DNA of 38,831 nt. Source: Escherichia phage T7. Positions 5,912-38,519 of this stretch are shown here, in pieces. The notes below the pieces were generated by a model. The model did no database searches. It was not told where the DNA came from and worked only from the letters and a program-made list of their open reading frames with translations. The position numbers were made by a program, and so were the translations under genes. The stretch lies in the sequence record MZ375240.1, one strand, 5' to 3'. Each line of letters opens with the position of its first letter. Position 1 is the stretch's first letter.

Positions 5912-6991
5912 ATGATGAACATTAAGACTAACCCGTTTAAAGCCGTGTCTTTCGTAGAGTCTGCCATTAAGAAGGCTCTGGATAACGCTGGGTATCTTAT
6001 CGCTGAAATCAAGTACGATGGTGTACGCGGGAACATCTGCGTAGACAATACTGCTAACAGTTACTGGCTCTCTCGTGTATCTAAAACGATTCCGGCACTG
6101 GAGCACTTAAACGGGTTTGATGTTCGCTGGAAGCGTCTACTGAACGATGACCGTTGCTTCTACAAAGATGGCTTTATGCTTGATGGGGAACTCATGGTCA
6201 AGGGCGTAGACTTTAACACAGGGTCCGGCCTACTGCGTACCAAATGGACTGACACGAAGAACCAAGAGTTCCATGAAGAGTTATTCGTTGAACCAATCCG
6301 TAAGAAAGATAAAGTTCCCTTTAAGCTGCACACTGGACACCTTCACATAAAACTGTACGCTATCCTCCCGCTGCACATCGTGGAGTCTGGAGAAGACTGT
6401 GATGTCATGACGTTGCTCATGCAGGAACACGTTAAGAACATGCTGCCTCTGCTACAGGAATACTTCCCTGAAATCGAATGGCAAGCGGCTGAATCTTACG
6501 AGGTCTACGATATGGTAGAACTACAGCAACTGTACGAGCAGAAGCGAGCAGAAGGCCATGAGGGTCTCATTGTGAAAGACCCGATGTGTATCTATAAGCG
6601 CGGTAAGAAATCTGGCTGGTGGAAAATGAAACCTGAGAACGAAGCTGACGGTATCATTCAGGGTCTGGTATGGGGTACAAAAGGTCTGGCTAATGAAGGT
6701 AAAGTGATTGGTTTTGAGGTGCTTCTTGAGAGTGGTCGTTTAGTTAACGCCACGAATATCTCTCGCGCCTTAATGGATGAGTTCACTGAGACAGTAAAAG
6801 AGGCCACCCTAAGTCAATGGGGATTCTTTAGCCCATACGGTATTGGCGACAACGATGCTTGTACTATTAACCCTTACGATGGCTGGGCGTGTCAAATTAG
6901 CTACATGGAGGAAACACCTGATGGCTCTTTGCGGCACCCATCGTTCGTAATGTTCCGTGGCACCGAGGACAACCCTCAAGAGAAAATGTAA
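5912..6991 (+). CDS. 1.3: Gene 1.3, ATP-dependent DNA ligase
   Basis: ORF track 359 aa; ligase adenylation motif KYDGVRG near the N-terminus. Confidence 0.96.
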   Translation: MMNIKTNPFKAVSFVESAIKKALDNAGYLIAEIKYDGVRGNICVDNTANSYWLSRVSKTIPALEHLNGFDVRWKRLLNDDRCFYKDGFMLDGELMVKGVDFNTGSGLLRTKWTDTKNQEFHEELFVEPIRKKDKVPFKLHTGHLHIKLYAILPLHIVESGEDCDVMTLLMQEHVKNMLPLLQEYFPEIEWQAAESYEVYDMVELQQLYEQKRAEGHEGLIVKDPMCIYKRGKKSGWWKMKPENEADGIIQGLVWGTKGLANEGKVIGFEVLLESGRLVNATNISRALMDEFTETVKEATLSQWGFFSPYGIGDNDACTINPYDGWACQISYMEETPDGSLRHPSFVMFRGTEDNPQEKM

Positions 6992-6994
6992 TCA

Positions 6995-7030
6995 CACTGG
7001 CTCACCTTCGGGTGGGCCTTTCTGCGTTTA
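6995..7030 (+). terminator. Early terminator TE (rho-independent, host RNAP)
   Basis: GC-rich hairpin ggctcacc-ttcg-ggtgggcc followed by tttctgcgttta, just after the ligase stop. Confidence 0.85.
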
Positions 7031-7041
7031 TAAGGAGACAC

Positions 7042-7064
7042 TTTTACGACTCACTAAAGGAGGT
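7042..7064 (+). promoter_or_regulatory. T7 promoter phi1.5 with altered upstream edge (TTT at -17..-15 where the reference has TAA)
   Basis: cTTTTACGACTCACTAAAGGAGG; the -14..+6 part matches phi1.5, the upstream part is fused to the gene 1.4 RBS. Confidence 0.75.
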
Positions 7065-7071
7065 ACACACC

Positions 7072-7161
7072 ATGATGTACTTAATGCCATTACTCATCGT
7101 CATTGTAGGATGCCTTGCGCTCCACTGTAGCGATGATGATATGCCAGATGGTCACGCTTAA
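7072..7161 (+). CDS. 1.5: Gene 1.5, small hydrophobic protein
   Basis: 29 codons MMYLMPLLIVIVGCLALHCSDDDMPDGHA; position matches the reference gene. Confidence 0.7.
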   Translation: MMYLMPLLIVIVGCLALHCSDDDMPDGHA

Positions 7162-7181
7162 TACGACTCACTAAAGGAGAC
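7159..7181 (+). promoter_or_regulatory. T7 promoter phi1.6
   Basis: TAATACGACTCACTAAAGGAGAC. Confidence 0.88.
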
Positions 7182-7186
7182 ACTAT

Positions 7187-7447
7187 ATGTTTCGACTTCA
7201 TTACAACAAAAGCGTTAAGAATTTCACGGTTCGCCGTGCTGACCGTTCAATCGTATGTGCGAGCGAGCGCCGAGCTAAGATACCTCTTATTGGTAACACA
7301 GTTCCTTTGGCACCGAGCGTCCACATCATTATCACCCGTGGTGACTTTGAGAAAGCAATAGACAAGAAACGTCCGGTTCTTAGTGTGGCAGTGACCCGCT
7401 TCCCGTTCGTCCGTCTGTTACTCAAACGAATCAAGGAGGTGTTCTGA
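7187..7447 (+). CDS. 1.6: Gene 1.6, function unknown
   Basis: ORF track 86 aa. Confidence 0.85.
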
Positions 7448-8029
7448 TGGGACTGTTAGATGGTGAAGCCTGGGAAAAAGAAAACCCGCCAGTACAAGCA
7501 ACTGGGTGTATAGCTTGCTTAGAGAAAGATGACCGTTATCCACACACCTGTAACAAAGGAGCTAACGATATGACCGAACGTGAACAAGAGATGATCATTA
7601 AGTTGATAGACAATAATGAAGGTCGCCCAGATGATTTGAATGGCTGCGGTATTCTCTGCTCCAATGTCCCTTGCCACCTCTGCCCCGCAAATAACGATCA
7701 AAAGATAACCTTAGGTGAAATCCGAGCGATGGACCCACGTAAACCACATCTGAATAAACCTGAGGTAACTCCTACAGATGACCAGCCTTCCGCTGAGACA
7801 ATCGAAGGTGTCACTAAGCCTTCCCACTACATGCTGTTTGACGACATTGAGGCTATCGAAGTGATTGCTCGTTCAATGACCGTTGAGCAGTTCAAGGGAT
7901 ACTGCTTCGGTAACATCTTAAAGTACAGACTACGTGCTGGTAAGAAGTCAGAGTTAGCGTACTTAGAGAAAGACCTAGCGAAAGCAGACTTCTATAAAGA
8001 ACTCTTTGAGAAACATAAGGATAAATGTT

Positions 8030-8037
<8 letters not shown>
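7447..8037 (+). CDS. 1.7: Gene 1.7, nucleotide (dGMP/dTMP) kinase
   Basis: ORF track 196 aa; ATG overlaps the gene 1.6 stop (TGATG). Confidence 0.9.
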
Positions 8038-8370
<333 letters not shown>

Positions 8371-8373
<3 letters not shown>

Positions 8374-8394
8374 TACGACTCACTATTAGGGAAG
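8371..8394 (+). promoter_or_regulatory. T7 promoter phi2.5
   Basis: TAATACGACTCACTATTAGGGAAGA. Confidence 0.85.
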
Positions 8395-8438
8395 ACTCCC
8401 TCTGAGAAACCAAACGAAACCTAAAGGAGATTAACATT

Positions 8439-9137
8439 ATGGCTAAGAAGATTTTCACCTCTGCGCTGGGTACCGCTGAACCTTACGCTTACATCGCCAA
8501 GCCGGACTACGGCAACGAAGAGCGTGGCTTTGGGAACCCTCGTGGTGTCTATAAAGTTGACCTGACTATTCCCAACAAAGACCCGCGCTGCCAGCGTATG
8601 GTCGATGAAATCGTGAAGTGTCACGAAGAGGCTTATGCTGCTGCCGTTGAGGAATACGAAGCTAATCCACCTGCTGTAGCTCGTGGTAAGAAACCGCTGA
8701 AACCGTATGAGGGTGACATGCCGTTCTTCGATAACGGTGACGGTACGACTACCTTTAAGTTCAAATGCTACGCGTCTTTCCAAGACAAGAAGACCAAAGA
8801 GACCAAGCACATCAATCTGGTTGTGGTTGACTCAAAAGGTAAGAAGATGGAAGACGTTCCGATTATCGGTGGTGGCTCTAAGCTGAAAGTTAAATATTCT
8901 CTGGTTCCATACAAGTGGAACACTGCTGTAGGTGCGAGCGTTAAGCTGCAACTGGAATCCGTGATGCTGGTCGAACTGGCTACCTTTGGTGGCGGTGAAG
9001 ACGATTGGGCTGACGAAGTTGAAGAGAACGGCTATGTTGCCTCTGGTTCTGCCAAAGCGAGCAAACCACGCGACGAAGAAAGCTGGGACGAAGACGACGA
9101 AGAGTCCGAGGAAGCAGACGAAGACGGAGACTTCTAA
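8439..9137 (+). CDS. 2.5: Gene 2.5, single-stranded DNA-binding protein
   Basis: ORF track 232 aa with acidic C-terminal tail ...EADEDGDF. Confidence 0.97.
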   Translation: MAKKIFTSALGTAEPYAYIAKPDYGNEERGFGNPRGVYKVDLTIPNKDPRCQRMVDEIVKCHEEAYAAAVEEYEANPPAVARGKKPLKPYEGDMPFFDNGDGTTTFKFKCYASFQDKKTKETKHINLVVVDSKGKKMEDVPIIGGGSKLKVKYSLVPYKWNTAVGASVKLQLESVMLVELATFGGGEDDWADEVEENGYVASGSAKASKPRDEESWDEDDEESEEADEDGDF

Positions 9138-10505: not shown

Positions 10506-12604
<2,099 letters not shown>

Positions 12605-12627: not shown

Positions 12628-12666
12628 ACACCAAATTCTTTGAGTAATCAAACAGGAGAAACCATT

Positions 12667-13009: not shown

Positions 13010-13417
13010 ATGCGTGACCCTAAAGTTATCCAAGCAGAAATCGCTAAACTGGAAGCTGAACTGGAGGACGTTAAGTACCATGAAGCTAAGACTCGCTCCG
13101 CTGTTCACATCTTGAAGAACTTAGGCTGGACTTGGACAAGACAGACTGGCTGGAAGAAACCAGAAGTTACCAAGCTGAGTCATAAGGTGTTCGATAAGGA
13201 CACTATGACCCACATCAAGGCTGGTGATTGGGTTAAGGTTGACATGGGAGTTGTTGGTGGATACGGCTACGTCCGCTCAGTTAGTGGCAAATATGCACAA
13301 GTGTCATACATCACAGGTGTTACTCCACGCGGTGCAATCGTTGCCGATAAGACCAACATGATTCACACAGGTTTCTTGACAGTTGTTTCATATGAAGAGA
13401 TTGTTAAGTCACGATAA
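13010..13417 (+). CDS. 4.7: Gene 4.7, function unknown
   Basis: 135 aa from the ATG at 13010 (MRDPKVIQAEI...) inside ORF-track entry 12881..13417, directly after the phi4.7 RBS. Confidence 0.85.
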   Translation: MRDPKVIQAEIAKLEAELEDVKYHEAKTRSAVHILKNLGWTWTRQTGWKKPEVTKLSHKVFDKDTMTHIKAGDWVKVDMGVVGGYGYVRSVSGKYAQVSYITGVTPRGAIVADKTNMIHTGFLTVVSYEEIVKSR

Positions 13418-13435
13418 TCAATAGGAGAAATCAAT

Positions 13436-15550
13436 ATGATCGTTTCTGACATCGAAGCTAACGCCCTCTTAGAGAGCGTCACTAAGTTCCACTGCGGGGT
13501 TATCTACGACTACTCCACCGCTGAGTACGTAAGCTACCGTCCGAGTGACTTCGGTGCGTATCTGGATGCGCTGGAAGCCGAGGTTGCACGAGGCGGTCTT
13601 ATTGTGTTCCACAACGGTCACAAGTATGACGTTCCTGCATTGACCAAACTGGCAAAGTTGCAATTGAACCGAGAGTTCCACCTTCCTCGTGAGAACTGTA
13701 TTGACACCCTTGTGTTGTCACGTTTGATTCATTCCAACCTCAAGGACACCGATATGGGTCTTCTGCGTTCCGGCAAGTTGCCCGGAAAACGCTTTGGGTC
13801 TCACGCTTTGGAGGCGTGGGGTTATCGCTTAGGCGAGATGAAGGGTGAATACAAAGACGACTTTAAGCGTATGCTTGAAGAGCAGGGTGAAGAATACGTT
13901 GACGGAATGGAGTGGTGGAACTTCAACGAAGAGATGATGGACTATAACGTTCAGGACGTTGTGGTAACTAAAGCTCTCCTTGAGAAGCTACTCTCTGACA
14001 AACATTACTTCCCTCCTGAGATTGACTTTACGGACGTAGGATACACTACGTTCTGGTCAGAATCCCTTGAGGCCGTTGACATTGAACATCGTGCTGCATG
14101 GCTGCTCGCTAAACAAGAGCGCAACGGGTTCCCGTTTGACACAAAAGCAATCGAAGAGTTGTACGTAGAGTTAGCTGCTCGCCGCTCTGAGTTGCTCCGT
14201 AAATTGACCGAAACGTTCGGCTCGTGGTATCAGCCTAAAGGTGGCACTGAGATGTTCTGCCATCCGCGAACAGGTAAGCCACTACCTAAATACCCTCGCA
14301 TTAAGACACCTAAAGTTGGTGGTATCTTTAAGAAGCCTAAGAACAAGGCACAGCGAGAAGGCCGTGAGCCTTGCGAACTTGATACCCGCGAGTACGTTGC
14401 TGGTGCTCCTTACACCCCAGTTGAACATGTTGTGTTTAACCCTTCGTCTCGTGACCACATTCAGAAGAAACTCCAAGAGGCTGGGTGGGTCCCGACCAAG
14501 TACACCGATAAGGGTGCTCCTGTGGTGGACGATGAGGTACTCGAAGGAGTACGTGTAGATGACCCTGAGAAGCAAGCCGCTATCGACCTCATTAAAGAGT
14601 ACTTGATGATTCAGAAGCGAATCGGACAGTCTGCTGAGGGAGACAAAGCATGGCTTCGTTATGTTGCTGAGGATGGTAAGATTCATGGTTCTGTTAACCC
14701 TAATGGAGCAGTTACGGGTCGTGCGACCCATGCGTTCCCAAACCTTGCGCAAATTCCGGGTGTACGTTCTCCTTATGGAGAGCAGTGTCGCGCTGCTTTT
14801 GGCGCTGAGCACCATTTGGATGGGATAACTGGTAAGCCTTGGGTTCAGGCTGGCATCGACGCATCCGGTCTTGAGCTACGCTGCTTGGCTCACTTCATGG
14901 CTCGCTTTGATAACGGCGAGTACGCTCACGAGATTCTTAACGGCGACATCCACACTAAGAACCAGATAGCTGCTGAACTACCTACCCGAGATAACGCTAA
15001 GACGTTCATCTATGGGTTCCTCTATGGTGCTGGTGATGAGAAGATTGGACAGATTGTTGGTGCTGGTAAAGAGCGCGGTAAGGAACTCAAGAAGAAATTC
15101 CTTGAGAACACCCCCGCGATTGCAGCACTCCGCGAGTCTATCCAACAGACACTTGTCGAGTCCTCTCAATGGGTAGCTGGTGAGCAACAAGTCAAGTGGA
15201 AACGCCGCTGGATTAAAGGTCTGGATGGTCGTAAGGTACACGTTCGTAGTCCTCACGCTGCCTTGAATACCCTACTGCAATCTGCTGGTGCTCTCATCTG
15301 CAAACTGTGGATTATCAAGACCGAAGAGATGCTCGTAGAGAAAGGCTTGAAGCATGGCTGGGATGGGGACTTTGCGTACATGGCATGGGTACATGATGAA
15401 ATCCAAGTAGGCTGCCGTACCGAAGAGATTGCTCAGGTGGTCATTGAGACCGCACAAGAAGCGATGCGCTGGGTTGGAGACCACTGGAACTTCCGGTGTC
15501 TTCTGGATACCGAAGGTAAGATGGGTCCTAATTGGGCGATTTGCCACTGA
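13436..15550 (+). CDS. 5: Gene 5, DNA polymerase (family A, 3'-5' exonuclease, thioredoxin-binding)
   Basis: ORF track 704 aa [13 protein letters not shown]...; recognised as T7 DNA polymerase. Confidence 0.98.
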
Positions 15551-38471: not shown

Positions 38472-38519
38472 ATGTTCCGCTTATTGTTGAACCTACTGCG
38501 GCATAGAGTCAAGTCCTAA
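38472..38519 (+). pseudogene. 19.5: Gene 19.5 truncated to 15 codons
   Basis: ATG at 38472 after agggaggagactc RBS; MFRLLLNLLRHRVKS then stop, whereas the gene encodes about 49 aa in reference T7. Confidence 0.7.

What the first reader, a model, noticed from the sequence alone, without database searches (positions are those of the whole stretch)
7031..7064. Scarless removal of gene 1.4 from start codon to stop codon, altering the upstream edge of promoter phi1.5
After the gene 1.4 ribosome-binding site (taaggagacacttt) the sequence runs straight into TACGACTCACTAAAGGAGG, which is phi1.5 from position -14 onward. In reference T7 the gene 1.4 stop TAA forms promoter positions -17 to -15. The 156 missing bp therefore equal the gene 1.4 ORF exactly, from the A of ATG through the stop, which is very unlikely for a spontaneous event and suggests engineering. 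A side effect is that phi1.5 now reads TTT instead of TAA at -17..-15, in the AT-rich region contacted by the RNAP N-terminal domain, so gene 1.5 expression from this promoter may be changed.
Basis: partly seen in the sequence, partly recalled or inferred. Interest (0 to 1): 0.6.

Follow-up and report, generated by a model that had tools for sequence, protein, structure and literature searches.

The report
Engineered gene 1.4 deletion in T7
The window is a laboratory genome-reduced phage T7 in which the small non-essential gene 1.4 was cut out exactly from start codon to stop codon by a published CRISPR/homology-template method; this also changes two bases at the upstream edge of promoter phi1.5, and it is real but ordinary and already known.

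Summary
Against reference T7 (V01146) the window lacks exactly reference 7608-7763, which is 156 bp and is gene 1.4 from the A of ATG through TAA. The junction lies at window 7044|7045, with no microhomology and no ambiguity in placement.

The gene 1.4 stop codon was positions -17..-15 of phi1.5, so the promoter now reads TTTTA instead of TAATA at -17..-13.

The exact junction occurs in 63 public phage records. All are "Mutant Escherichia phage T7 clone" genomes from the CiPGr genome-reduction study (Yuan et al. 2022, NAR). [quoted passage not shown] Clones from transfers 10 and 20 still carry gene 1.4; every clone from transfer 30 onward lacks it. The window is probably one of these clones; MZ375240 is missing from the collection.

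The promoter edit hits positions that are A in 16/17 (-16) and 17/17 (-15) native T7 promoters. Published in vitro data show A-to-T there is the mildest substitution, about 68% activity each. The promoter is therefore probably weakened a few-fold, not lost. Gene 1.5 is also read from upstream promoters.

This is already known and of low interest.

The parts
5912..6991 (+). Gene 1.3 (DNA ligase), intact, immediately upstream of the edited locus
   Evidence: ORF 5912..6991; corresponds to V01146 6475-7554.
6999..7029 (+). Host-RNAP early terminator TE (GC-rich hairpin ggctcacc/ggtgggcc plus T-rich tail), intact
   Evidence: Identical to V01146 around the annotated TE at 7588, which is window 7025.
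7031..7044 (+). Orphaned gene 1.4 ribosome-binding site and leader (taaggagacacttt), now followed by no start codon; its last three T's supply positions -17..-15 of phi1.5
   Evidence: In V01146 this sequence directly precedes the gene 1.4 ATG. In the window no ATG, GTG or TTG follows within normal spacing.
7044..7045 (+). Deletion junction: reference 7607 joined to 7764. The 156 bp of gene 1.4 (ATG..TAA) are absent, with zero microhomology and no scar
   Evidence: The same 40-bp junction occurs in 63 CiPGr T7 records.
7042..7064 (+). Promoter phi1.5, -17..+6, start site at 7059. It reads TTTTACGACTCACTAAAGGAGGT (A to T at -16 and -15); -14..+6 is unchanged
   Evidence: PWM score is 23.7 bits against 31.9 for wild type. 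This is the lowest of the 17 promoters but far above the best non-promoter site (8.0 bits).
7072..7161 (+). Gene 1.5 (29 aa), intact
   Evidence: Identical to V01146 7791-7880; matches phrog_12128.
7159..7181 (+). Promoter phi1.6 (-17..+6, start site 7176), intact. It shares TACGACTCACTAAAGGAG with phi1.5
   Evidence: This repeat mediated a further loss of gene 1.5 in sibling clones.

Best explanation

How it arose. Phage T7 was passaged on E. coli carrying SpCas9 and a plasmid library. Each cassette-gene plasmid supplied a spacer against one non-essential gene and a 100-bp repair template made of the 50 bp on either side of that gene. Cas9 cut gene 1.4, and recombination with the template (predicted to be window 6995-7044 plus 7045-7094) joined reference 7607 to 7764. 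Continued Cas9 targeting of the intact allele drove the deletion to fixation between transfers 20 and 30.

Consequences.
- Loss of gp1.4, a 51-aa hydrophobic protein of unknown function (DUF5464).
- An orphaned Shine-Dalgarno sequence.
- Replacement of phi1.5 positions -16 and -15 (A, A) by T, T, because the designers' ORF boundary overlapped the promoter by 3 bp.
- The promoter keeps an all-A/T -17..-13 element and an unchanged -14..+6. It most likely still fires at a few-fold lower rate, with little effect on gene 1.5 because upstream T7 promoters read through.

Shown: the sequence change, its exclusivity to the engineered lineage, and its time of appearance. Inferred: the exact template sequence, the size of the promoter effect, and the identity of the window as clone MZ375240.
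For: - Deletion is exactly reference 7608-7763, the annotated gene 1.4, with 0 bp microhomology.
- The 40-bp junction is present in 63 of 50,697 phage records, all in the series MZ375237-294 and OL9647xx, 'Mutant Escherichia phage T7 clone T7_nL/nS/..'.
- The naming (transfer number plus large or small plaque) and the sampling every 10 transfers from the cassette-gene library match the paper.
- Clones T7_10L, T7_10S and T7_20S retain gene 1.4. All later clones have the junction (57 MZ records plus 6 OL records).
- The other three junctions of the window also recur only in sibling clones.
- MZ375240 is absent from the collection.
- Promoter effect: native promoters have A at -16 in 16/17 and at -15 in 17/17. 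In the Komura et al. 2018 S2 data, A-16T gives 114.5 and A-15T gives 115.7 against a wild-type mean of 169, about 68% each. G or C at these positions gives 4-15%.
- No reversion or second-site change in the 40-bp junction region in any of the 63 genomes up to transfer 300.
Against: - The cassette sequences (supplementary tables of the paper) are not held, so the designed template could not be compared directly.
- Other apparently designed deletions in sibling clones are not ORF-precise. Gene 3.8, for example, loses 11254-11545 out of 11225-11590. 'Entire gene' was therefore not applied uniformly, and the ATG-to-TAA rule for gene 1.4 is inferred from the product.
- One clone with 100-bp cassette-100-type deletions (OL964748) also carries the 156-bp gene 1.4 deletion. 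The library of origin for that allele is not fully pinned down.
- The exact double mutant TTT in an otherwise unchanged promoter was not in the held part of the Komura table. Compound variants containing TTT imply anything from about 0.14 to 0.46 of the expected activity (my arithmetic on single-barcode values).
Confidence: 0.95

Rival explanations
1. Spontaneous deletion, for example a CRISPR-escape event by illegitimate or microhomology-mediated joining, that happens to coincide with the ORF boundaries.
For: The same genome carries unplanned deletions: 563 bp in genes 0.4-0.6 and 189 bp in gene 19.5 between 9-bp repeats. The paper reports undesigned losses at gp0.3-0.6, gp4.3-4.7 and gp19.5.
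Against: There is no repeat or microhomology at the ends (ACTTT|ATGTT and GGTAA|TACGA). Both ends fall on the first base of ATG and the last base of TAA, roughly a 1e-4 or smaller coincidence for endpoints free to vary over about 100 bp each (my estimate). gp1.4 is not among the undesigned losses listed.
Confidence: 0.03
2. A pre-existing polymorphism of the laboratory's T7 stock, or a natural T7-like variant lacking gene 1.4.
For: Every clone from transfer 30 onward has it, which could look like an ancestral state.
Against: T7_10L, T7_10S and T7_20S from the same experiment carry gene 1.4 intact. All other T7 records (V01146, NC_001604, AY264774, GU071091, the LR7457xx and PP3843xx series and others) match the query only as two pieces separated by gene 1.4. 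No non-engineered record has the junction.
Confidence: 0.01
3. Assembly or record-editing artefact: the gene is present in the phage but dropped from the sequence.
For: None specific.
Against: The identical junction appears in 63 separately assembled genomes with differing other deletions. A similar deletion was deliberately rebuilt and shown viable by another laboratory.
Confidence: 0.01

Closest known systems
CiPGr cassette-gene deletions in phage T7 (Yuan et al. 2022, Nucleic Acids Res 50:13183; GenBank MZ375233-294 and OL9647xx)
   Same: The junction is identical over at least 2.5 kb of flanking sequence in sibling clones. The genome shares the companion deletions. The design principle is whole-gene removal with 50-bp arms.
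   Different: Nothing detectable at the locus. The window is a particular combination of four deletions plus private SNPs, and that combination was not among the top-listed hits when the window was searched in two halves. This fits its being the missing MZ375240.
SMART T7-B chassis phage gp1.4 deletion (mBio 2025, PMC12153263; PV223881 and PV223883)
   Same: Seamless engineered removal of gp1.4 at the same locus, leaving the 1.4 RBS next to phi1.5.
   Different: It was built independently by Red-ccdB recombineering. The junction reads ACTTTA|ACGACTC, a 156-bp deletion shifted by +1 nt (or the same deletion plus a T-14A change). phi1.5 therefore also loses T at -14, and the PWM score is 18.5 bits against 23.7.
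Wild-type T7 class II promoter phi1.5 (TAATACGACTCACTAAAGGAGGT)
   Same: -14..+6 is identical. The -17..-13 element is still composed only of A and T.
   Different: A to T at -16 and -15. These positions are A in 16/17 and 17/17 native T7 promoters.
Classical spontaneous T7 early-region deletions between short direct repeats (Studier-type deletion mutants; own knowledge)
   Same: They remove non-essential early or class II genes and give viable phage. Deletion 4 of this window (9-bp repeat ATAGAGTCA) is of this kind.
   Different: The gene 1.4 deletion has no flanking repeat and is ORF-delimited.

Membership tests
Designed scarless whole-ORF deletion (CiPGr cassette-gene edit) | Both deletion ends coincide with the target ORF's first and last base | tested here: met
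   The deleted segment is reference 7608-7763, which is the annotated gene 1.4. Placement is unique.
Designed scarless whole-ORF deletion (CiPGr cassette-gene edit) | No scar, insert or junction microhomology | tested here: met
   0 bp overlap and 0 inserted bases.
Designed scarless whole-ORF deletion (CiPGr cassette-gene edit) | The allele is restricted to the engineered lineage and absent from its early or parental members | tested here: met
   63 of 63 junction-bearing records are CiPGr clones. T7_10L, T7_10S and T7_20S keep the gene.
Designed scarless whole-ORF deletion (CiPGr cassette-gene edit) | The junction equals the synthesized 2 x 50 bp repair template for gp1.4 | not testable with these tools
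   The supplementary tables of PMC9825161 are not held.
Functional T7 RNA polymerase promoter (phi1.5) | Conserved core -12..-5 (CGACTCAC) and initiation region unchanged | tested here: met
   -14..+6 is identical to wild-type phi1.5.
Functional T7 RNA polymerase promoter (phi1.5) | Canonical TAATA at -17..-13, the A/T-rich element bound by the N-terminal AT-rich recognition loop (established structural knowledge) | tested here: not met
   It reads TTTTA. -15 T is seen in 0/17 native promoters and -16 T in 1/17. The element is still 100% A/T.
Functional T7 RNA polymerase promoter (phi1.5) | Measured transcription initiation from the site | not testable with these tools
   Only extrapolation is available. 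Single A-16T and A-15T variants keep about 68% in vitro activity. The PWM score of 23.7 bits is close to native phi4.7 at 25.1.
Spontaneous repeat- or microhomology-mediated deletion | A short direct repeat at both ends, one copy retained | tested here: not met
   None at this junction. Compare the 9-bp repeat at the gene 19.5 deletion.

The most novel reading that the evidence does not exclude
The rapid and permanent fixation of the gene 1.4 deletion (absent at transfer 20, present in every clone from transfer 30 to 300) may not be due to Cas9 counter-selection alone. Losing gp1.4, or retuning phi1.5 through the TTT upstream edge, could itself be beneficial to T7 under these conditions. That would make this an accidental adaptive promoter or gene edit.
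Probability: 0.08. Interest if true: 0.3.

Novelty: already known. Interest (0 to 1): 0.08.

Why it matters
It matters little for biology.

The one mildly useful point is a design lesson. Deleting an ORF "start to stop" in T7 clips the first three bases of a promoter that overlaps the stop codon. This produces a phi1.5 variant (TTTTA upstream element) that was carried without reversion through about 270 further transfers. That suggests weak or no selection on -16/-15 of this promoter, or on phi1.5 strength.

Tried and rejected
- Spontaneous deletion was rejected: there is no microhomology, the ends are ORF-precise, and the other three deletions in the same genome look different.
- Ancestral or natural polymorphism was rejected: early clones and all other T7 records keep gene 1.4.
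- A new ORF or gene fusion created by the junction was considered. A 49-aa GTG ORF (7012..7161) runs in frame into gene 1.5. It starts inside the TE hairpin with no Shine-Dalgarno, and the orphan 1.4 SD has no start codon at usable spacing. I treat it as a mechanical ORF.
- I tried to read the cassette list and accession table of Yuan et al.; the supplements are not held.
- I tried to fetch MZ375240 to prove the window's identity; it is not in the collection.
- I tried to find the exact TTT double mutant in the Komura et al. data; it is not in the held portion. Only single mutants and compound variants were available.
- I checked whether the PV22388x junction was a compensatory point mutation derived from the CiPGr lineage. 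Its other deletion ends differ by 1-14 bp from the CiPGr ones, and the paper describes independent recombineering. It is therefore an independent construct.

Full report
**What is in the sequence**

Window 7029-7077 reads tataaggagacacttt|tacgactcactaaaggaggtacacaccATGATG. A megablast of window 6000-8500 against the phage collection shows that the window is phage T7. The reference records V01146, NC_001604 and AY264774 match only as two pieces, whereas dozens of "Mutant Escherichia phage T7 clone" records match in one piece.

Alignment to V01146 shows one gap of 156 bp. A whole-genome block comparison places it at reference 7608-7763. The leftmost and rightmost placements are identical, so there is no microhomology and no ambiguity.

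V01146 annotates gene 1.4 at 7608-7763 and the phi1.5 start site at 7778. The missing segment is therefore the gene 1.4 ORF from the A of ATG through the last A of TAA. That TAA (7761-7763) was positions -17..-15 of phi1.5, and the first retained base (window 7045) is -14.

The one refinement is that only -16 and -15 change (A to T), while -17 remains T.

**The rest of the genome**

The window is 1,106 bp shorter than V01146 through four deletions:

| Deletion | Size | Reference span | Junction homology | Genes affected |
|---|---|---|---|---|
| 1 | 563 bp | about 1341-1904 | 1 bp | 0.4-0.6 |
| 2 | 156 bp | 7608-7763 | 0 bp | 1.4, exactly ATG..TAA |
| 3 | 198 bp | within 13350-13550 | 3 bp ambiguity | 4.3, last 15 bp left |
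| 4 | 189 bp | about 39420-39617 | 9-bp direct repeat ATAGAGTCA | most of 19.5 |

Only the gene 1.4 deletion is delimited by ORF boundaries and free of junction homology. This contrast within a single genome is itself an argument for design.

**Provenance**

- A 40-bp probe centred on the junction can seed a megablast hit only if the junction is present. It finds 63 records. All belong to the series MZ375237-294 and OL9647xx, and all are described as mutant T7 clones with names such as T7_30L, T7_50L, T7_220S and T7_5t1.
- These names match Yuan et al. 2022 (PMC9825161). In that study T7 was passaged 300 times on cells carrying SpCas9 and a "cassette-gene" plasmid library. Large (L) and small (S) plaques were picked every 10 transfers, and 60 T7 mutants were sequenced.
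- The cassettes carried a 20-bp spacer and a 100-bp repair template with 50-bp arms. [quoted passage not shown]
- Clones T7_10L, T7_10S and T7_20S still contain gene 1.4. Every clone from T7_30L onward has the junction. The allele therefore arose and fixed between transfers 20 and 30.
- The other three junctions of the window also occur only in sibling clones, in 31, 28 and 41 records.
- Accession MZ375240, which falls between T7_30L (MZ375237) and T7_50L (MZ375241) in the numbering, is missing from the collection. The window is probably that record (inference).

**An independent construct**

PV223881 and PV223883 are T7-B-G and T7-B-J from the SMART study (mBio 2025, PMC12153263). They also lack gp1.4, "deleted seamlessly" by Red-ccdB recombineering. 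Their junction is ACTTTA|ACGACTC, shifted by one base. Their other deletion ends differ from the CiPGr ones. They are a separate engineering event at the same locus.

**Mechanism**

- Shown: the exact product, its restriction to the engineered lineage, and the time it appeared.
- Inferred: Cas9 cleavage within gene 1.4 was repaired by recombination with a plasmid template equal to window 6995-7044 plus 7045-7094. Persistent Cas9 targeting of the intact allele drove the edit to fixation.
- The supplementary cassette list that would confirm the template is not held.

**Consequences**

- Lost gene. gp1.4 is a 51-aa hydrophobic protein of unknown function (Pfam DUF5464, phrog_17655).
- Orphan RBS. 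The gene 1.4 Shine-Dalgarno sequence remains but has no start codon at usable spacing. A 49-aa GTG ORF that runs across the junction in frame with gene 1.5 is mechanical only.
- Neighbours. Terminator TE, gene 1.5 and phi1.6 are unchanged.
- Native conservation. Among the 17 annotated T7 promoters, -16 is A in 16 and -15 is A in all 17. The edit therefore touches conserved positions. This region is contacted in the minor groove by the AT-rich recognition loop of the RNA polymerase N-terminal domain (established structural knowledge).
- In vitro data. In the Komura et al. 2018 data set, wild type averages 169 (RNA/DNA reads). A-16T gives 114.5 and A-15T gives 115.7, about 68% each. G or C at those positions gives 4-15%, and AGG at -17..-15 gives 0.9%. 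A-to-T is thus the mildest possible change.
- Size of the effect. A multiplicative estimate for the double change is about 0.46. Compound variants that include TTT imply 0.14-0.25, but these are single-barcode values and noisy. The exact double mutant was not in the held part of the table.
- PWM score. A matrix built from the other 16 promoters scores the edited phi1.5 at 23.7 bits. Wild type scores 31.9, native phi4.7 scores 25.1, and the best non-promoter site in the window scores 8.0.
- Overall. I conclude the promoter is probably weakened a few-fold but still functional. Gene 1.5 is also transcribed by read-through from phi1.1A, phi1.1B and phi1.3 (T7 transcription map, own knowledge), so its expression should change little.
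- No reversion. No reversion or nearby compensatory change appears in any of the 63 genomes through transfer 300. This argues against strong selection on these bases.
- Further loss in siblings. Three late clones instead lost phi1.5 and gene 1.5 altogether. The cause was recombination between the phi1.5 and phi1.6 repeats, which left a TTT-headed phi1.6.

**Rivals**

- A spontaneous escape deletion is contradicted by the absence of microhomology and by the ORF-exact ends.
- An ancestral or natural polymorphism is contradicted by the early clones and by all other T7 records.
- An assembly artefact is contradicted by 63 independent assemblies and by an independent viable rebuild.

**Verdict**

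The feature is a known, published, engineered deletion, so novelty is "already known" and interest is low. The residual open question is how much TTTTA weakens phi1.5, and whether the allele is neutral. It is small and directly testable.

Noticed in passing
window 1341 (junction; reference ~1341-1904 missing): A 563-bp deletion removes the end of gene 0.4, gene 0.5 and most of gene 0.6, with only 1 bp of junction homology and ends inside genes. It is shared with 31 sibling CiPGr records. It corresponds to the undesigned gp0.3-0.6 region losses mentioned in the paper.
   Followed up: partly
window 12631-12633 (junction; reference 13350-13550 range missing): A 198-bp deletion removes gene 4.3. 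It can be placed to start exactly at the ATG (13352) but leaves the last 15 bp (AAATTCTTTGAGTAA). There is a 3-bp CCA ambiguity. It is present in 28 sibling records. Whether it was designed or is an escape deletion could not be decided without the cassette list.
   Followed up: partly
window 38503-38511 (junction; reference ~39420-39617 missing): A 189-bp deletion lies between two copies of the 9-bp direct repeat ATAGAGTCA and removes most of gene 19.5. This is a classic repeat-mediated spontaneous deletion. It is present in 41 sibling records. The SMART paper reports that gp19.5 loss reduces plaque size.
   Followed up: partly
window 405: The start-site base of promoter phiOL is G instead of A, giving ...CACTATAGGGAGA, closer to the class III consensus (PWM 33.4 to 36.1 bits). 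It is shared with T7_50L and T7_220S but not with T7_10L or T7_1t1.
   Followed up: partly
window 3158 and 5168 (gene 1, T7 RNA polymerase): There are two missense changes in T7 RNA polymerase. Q184R is shared with T7_50L, T7_220S and T7_1t1, so it swept in the experiment. H854R was seen only in the window among the genomes compared. Functional meaning is unknown.
   Followed up: partly
window 161, 12168, 16012, 29636, 33255: Further substitutions relative to the early clone T7_10L are 161 A>C (non-coding, left end), gene 4A M441I, gene 5.5 K27E, gene 15 Y743 synonymous, and gene 16 A1193V. The last is shared with later clones.
   Followed up: no
L008 (MZ375286, T7_270S) 151-215; also MZ375283 and MZ375290: In three late clones the gene 1.4 deletion is extended through gene 1.5. 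The TTT junction is fused directly to the phi1.6 promoter, consistent with recombination between the 18-bp phi1.5/phi1.6 repeat TACGACTCACTAAAGGAG. Gene 1.5 is thus also dispensable.
   Followed up: partly
L007 and L013 (PV223881, PV223883) around locus position 190 / record 6126: The independently engineered T7-B chassis phages carry a gp1.4 deletion offset by +1 nt (ACTTTA|ACGACTC). phi1.5 there reads TTTAA at -17..-13 and also loses the invariant T at -14 (PWM 18.5 bits). The paper reports the gp1.4 locus gave the lowest reporter expression of eight loci tested.
   Followed up: partly
L012 (OL964748, T7_1t1): This clone combines several exact 100-bp, zero-microhomology deletions (reference 8163-8262, 14172-14271 and 39565-39664, of cassette-100 type) with the 156-bp whole-gene 1.4 deletion. 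Either the two libraries or populations were mixed, or gene 1.4 was handled the same way in both.
   Followed up: no
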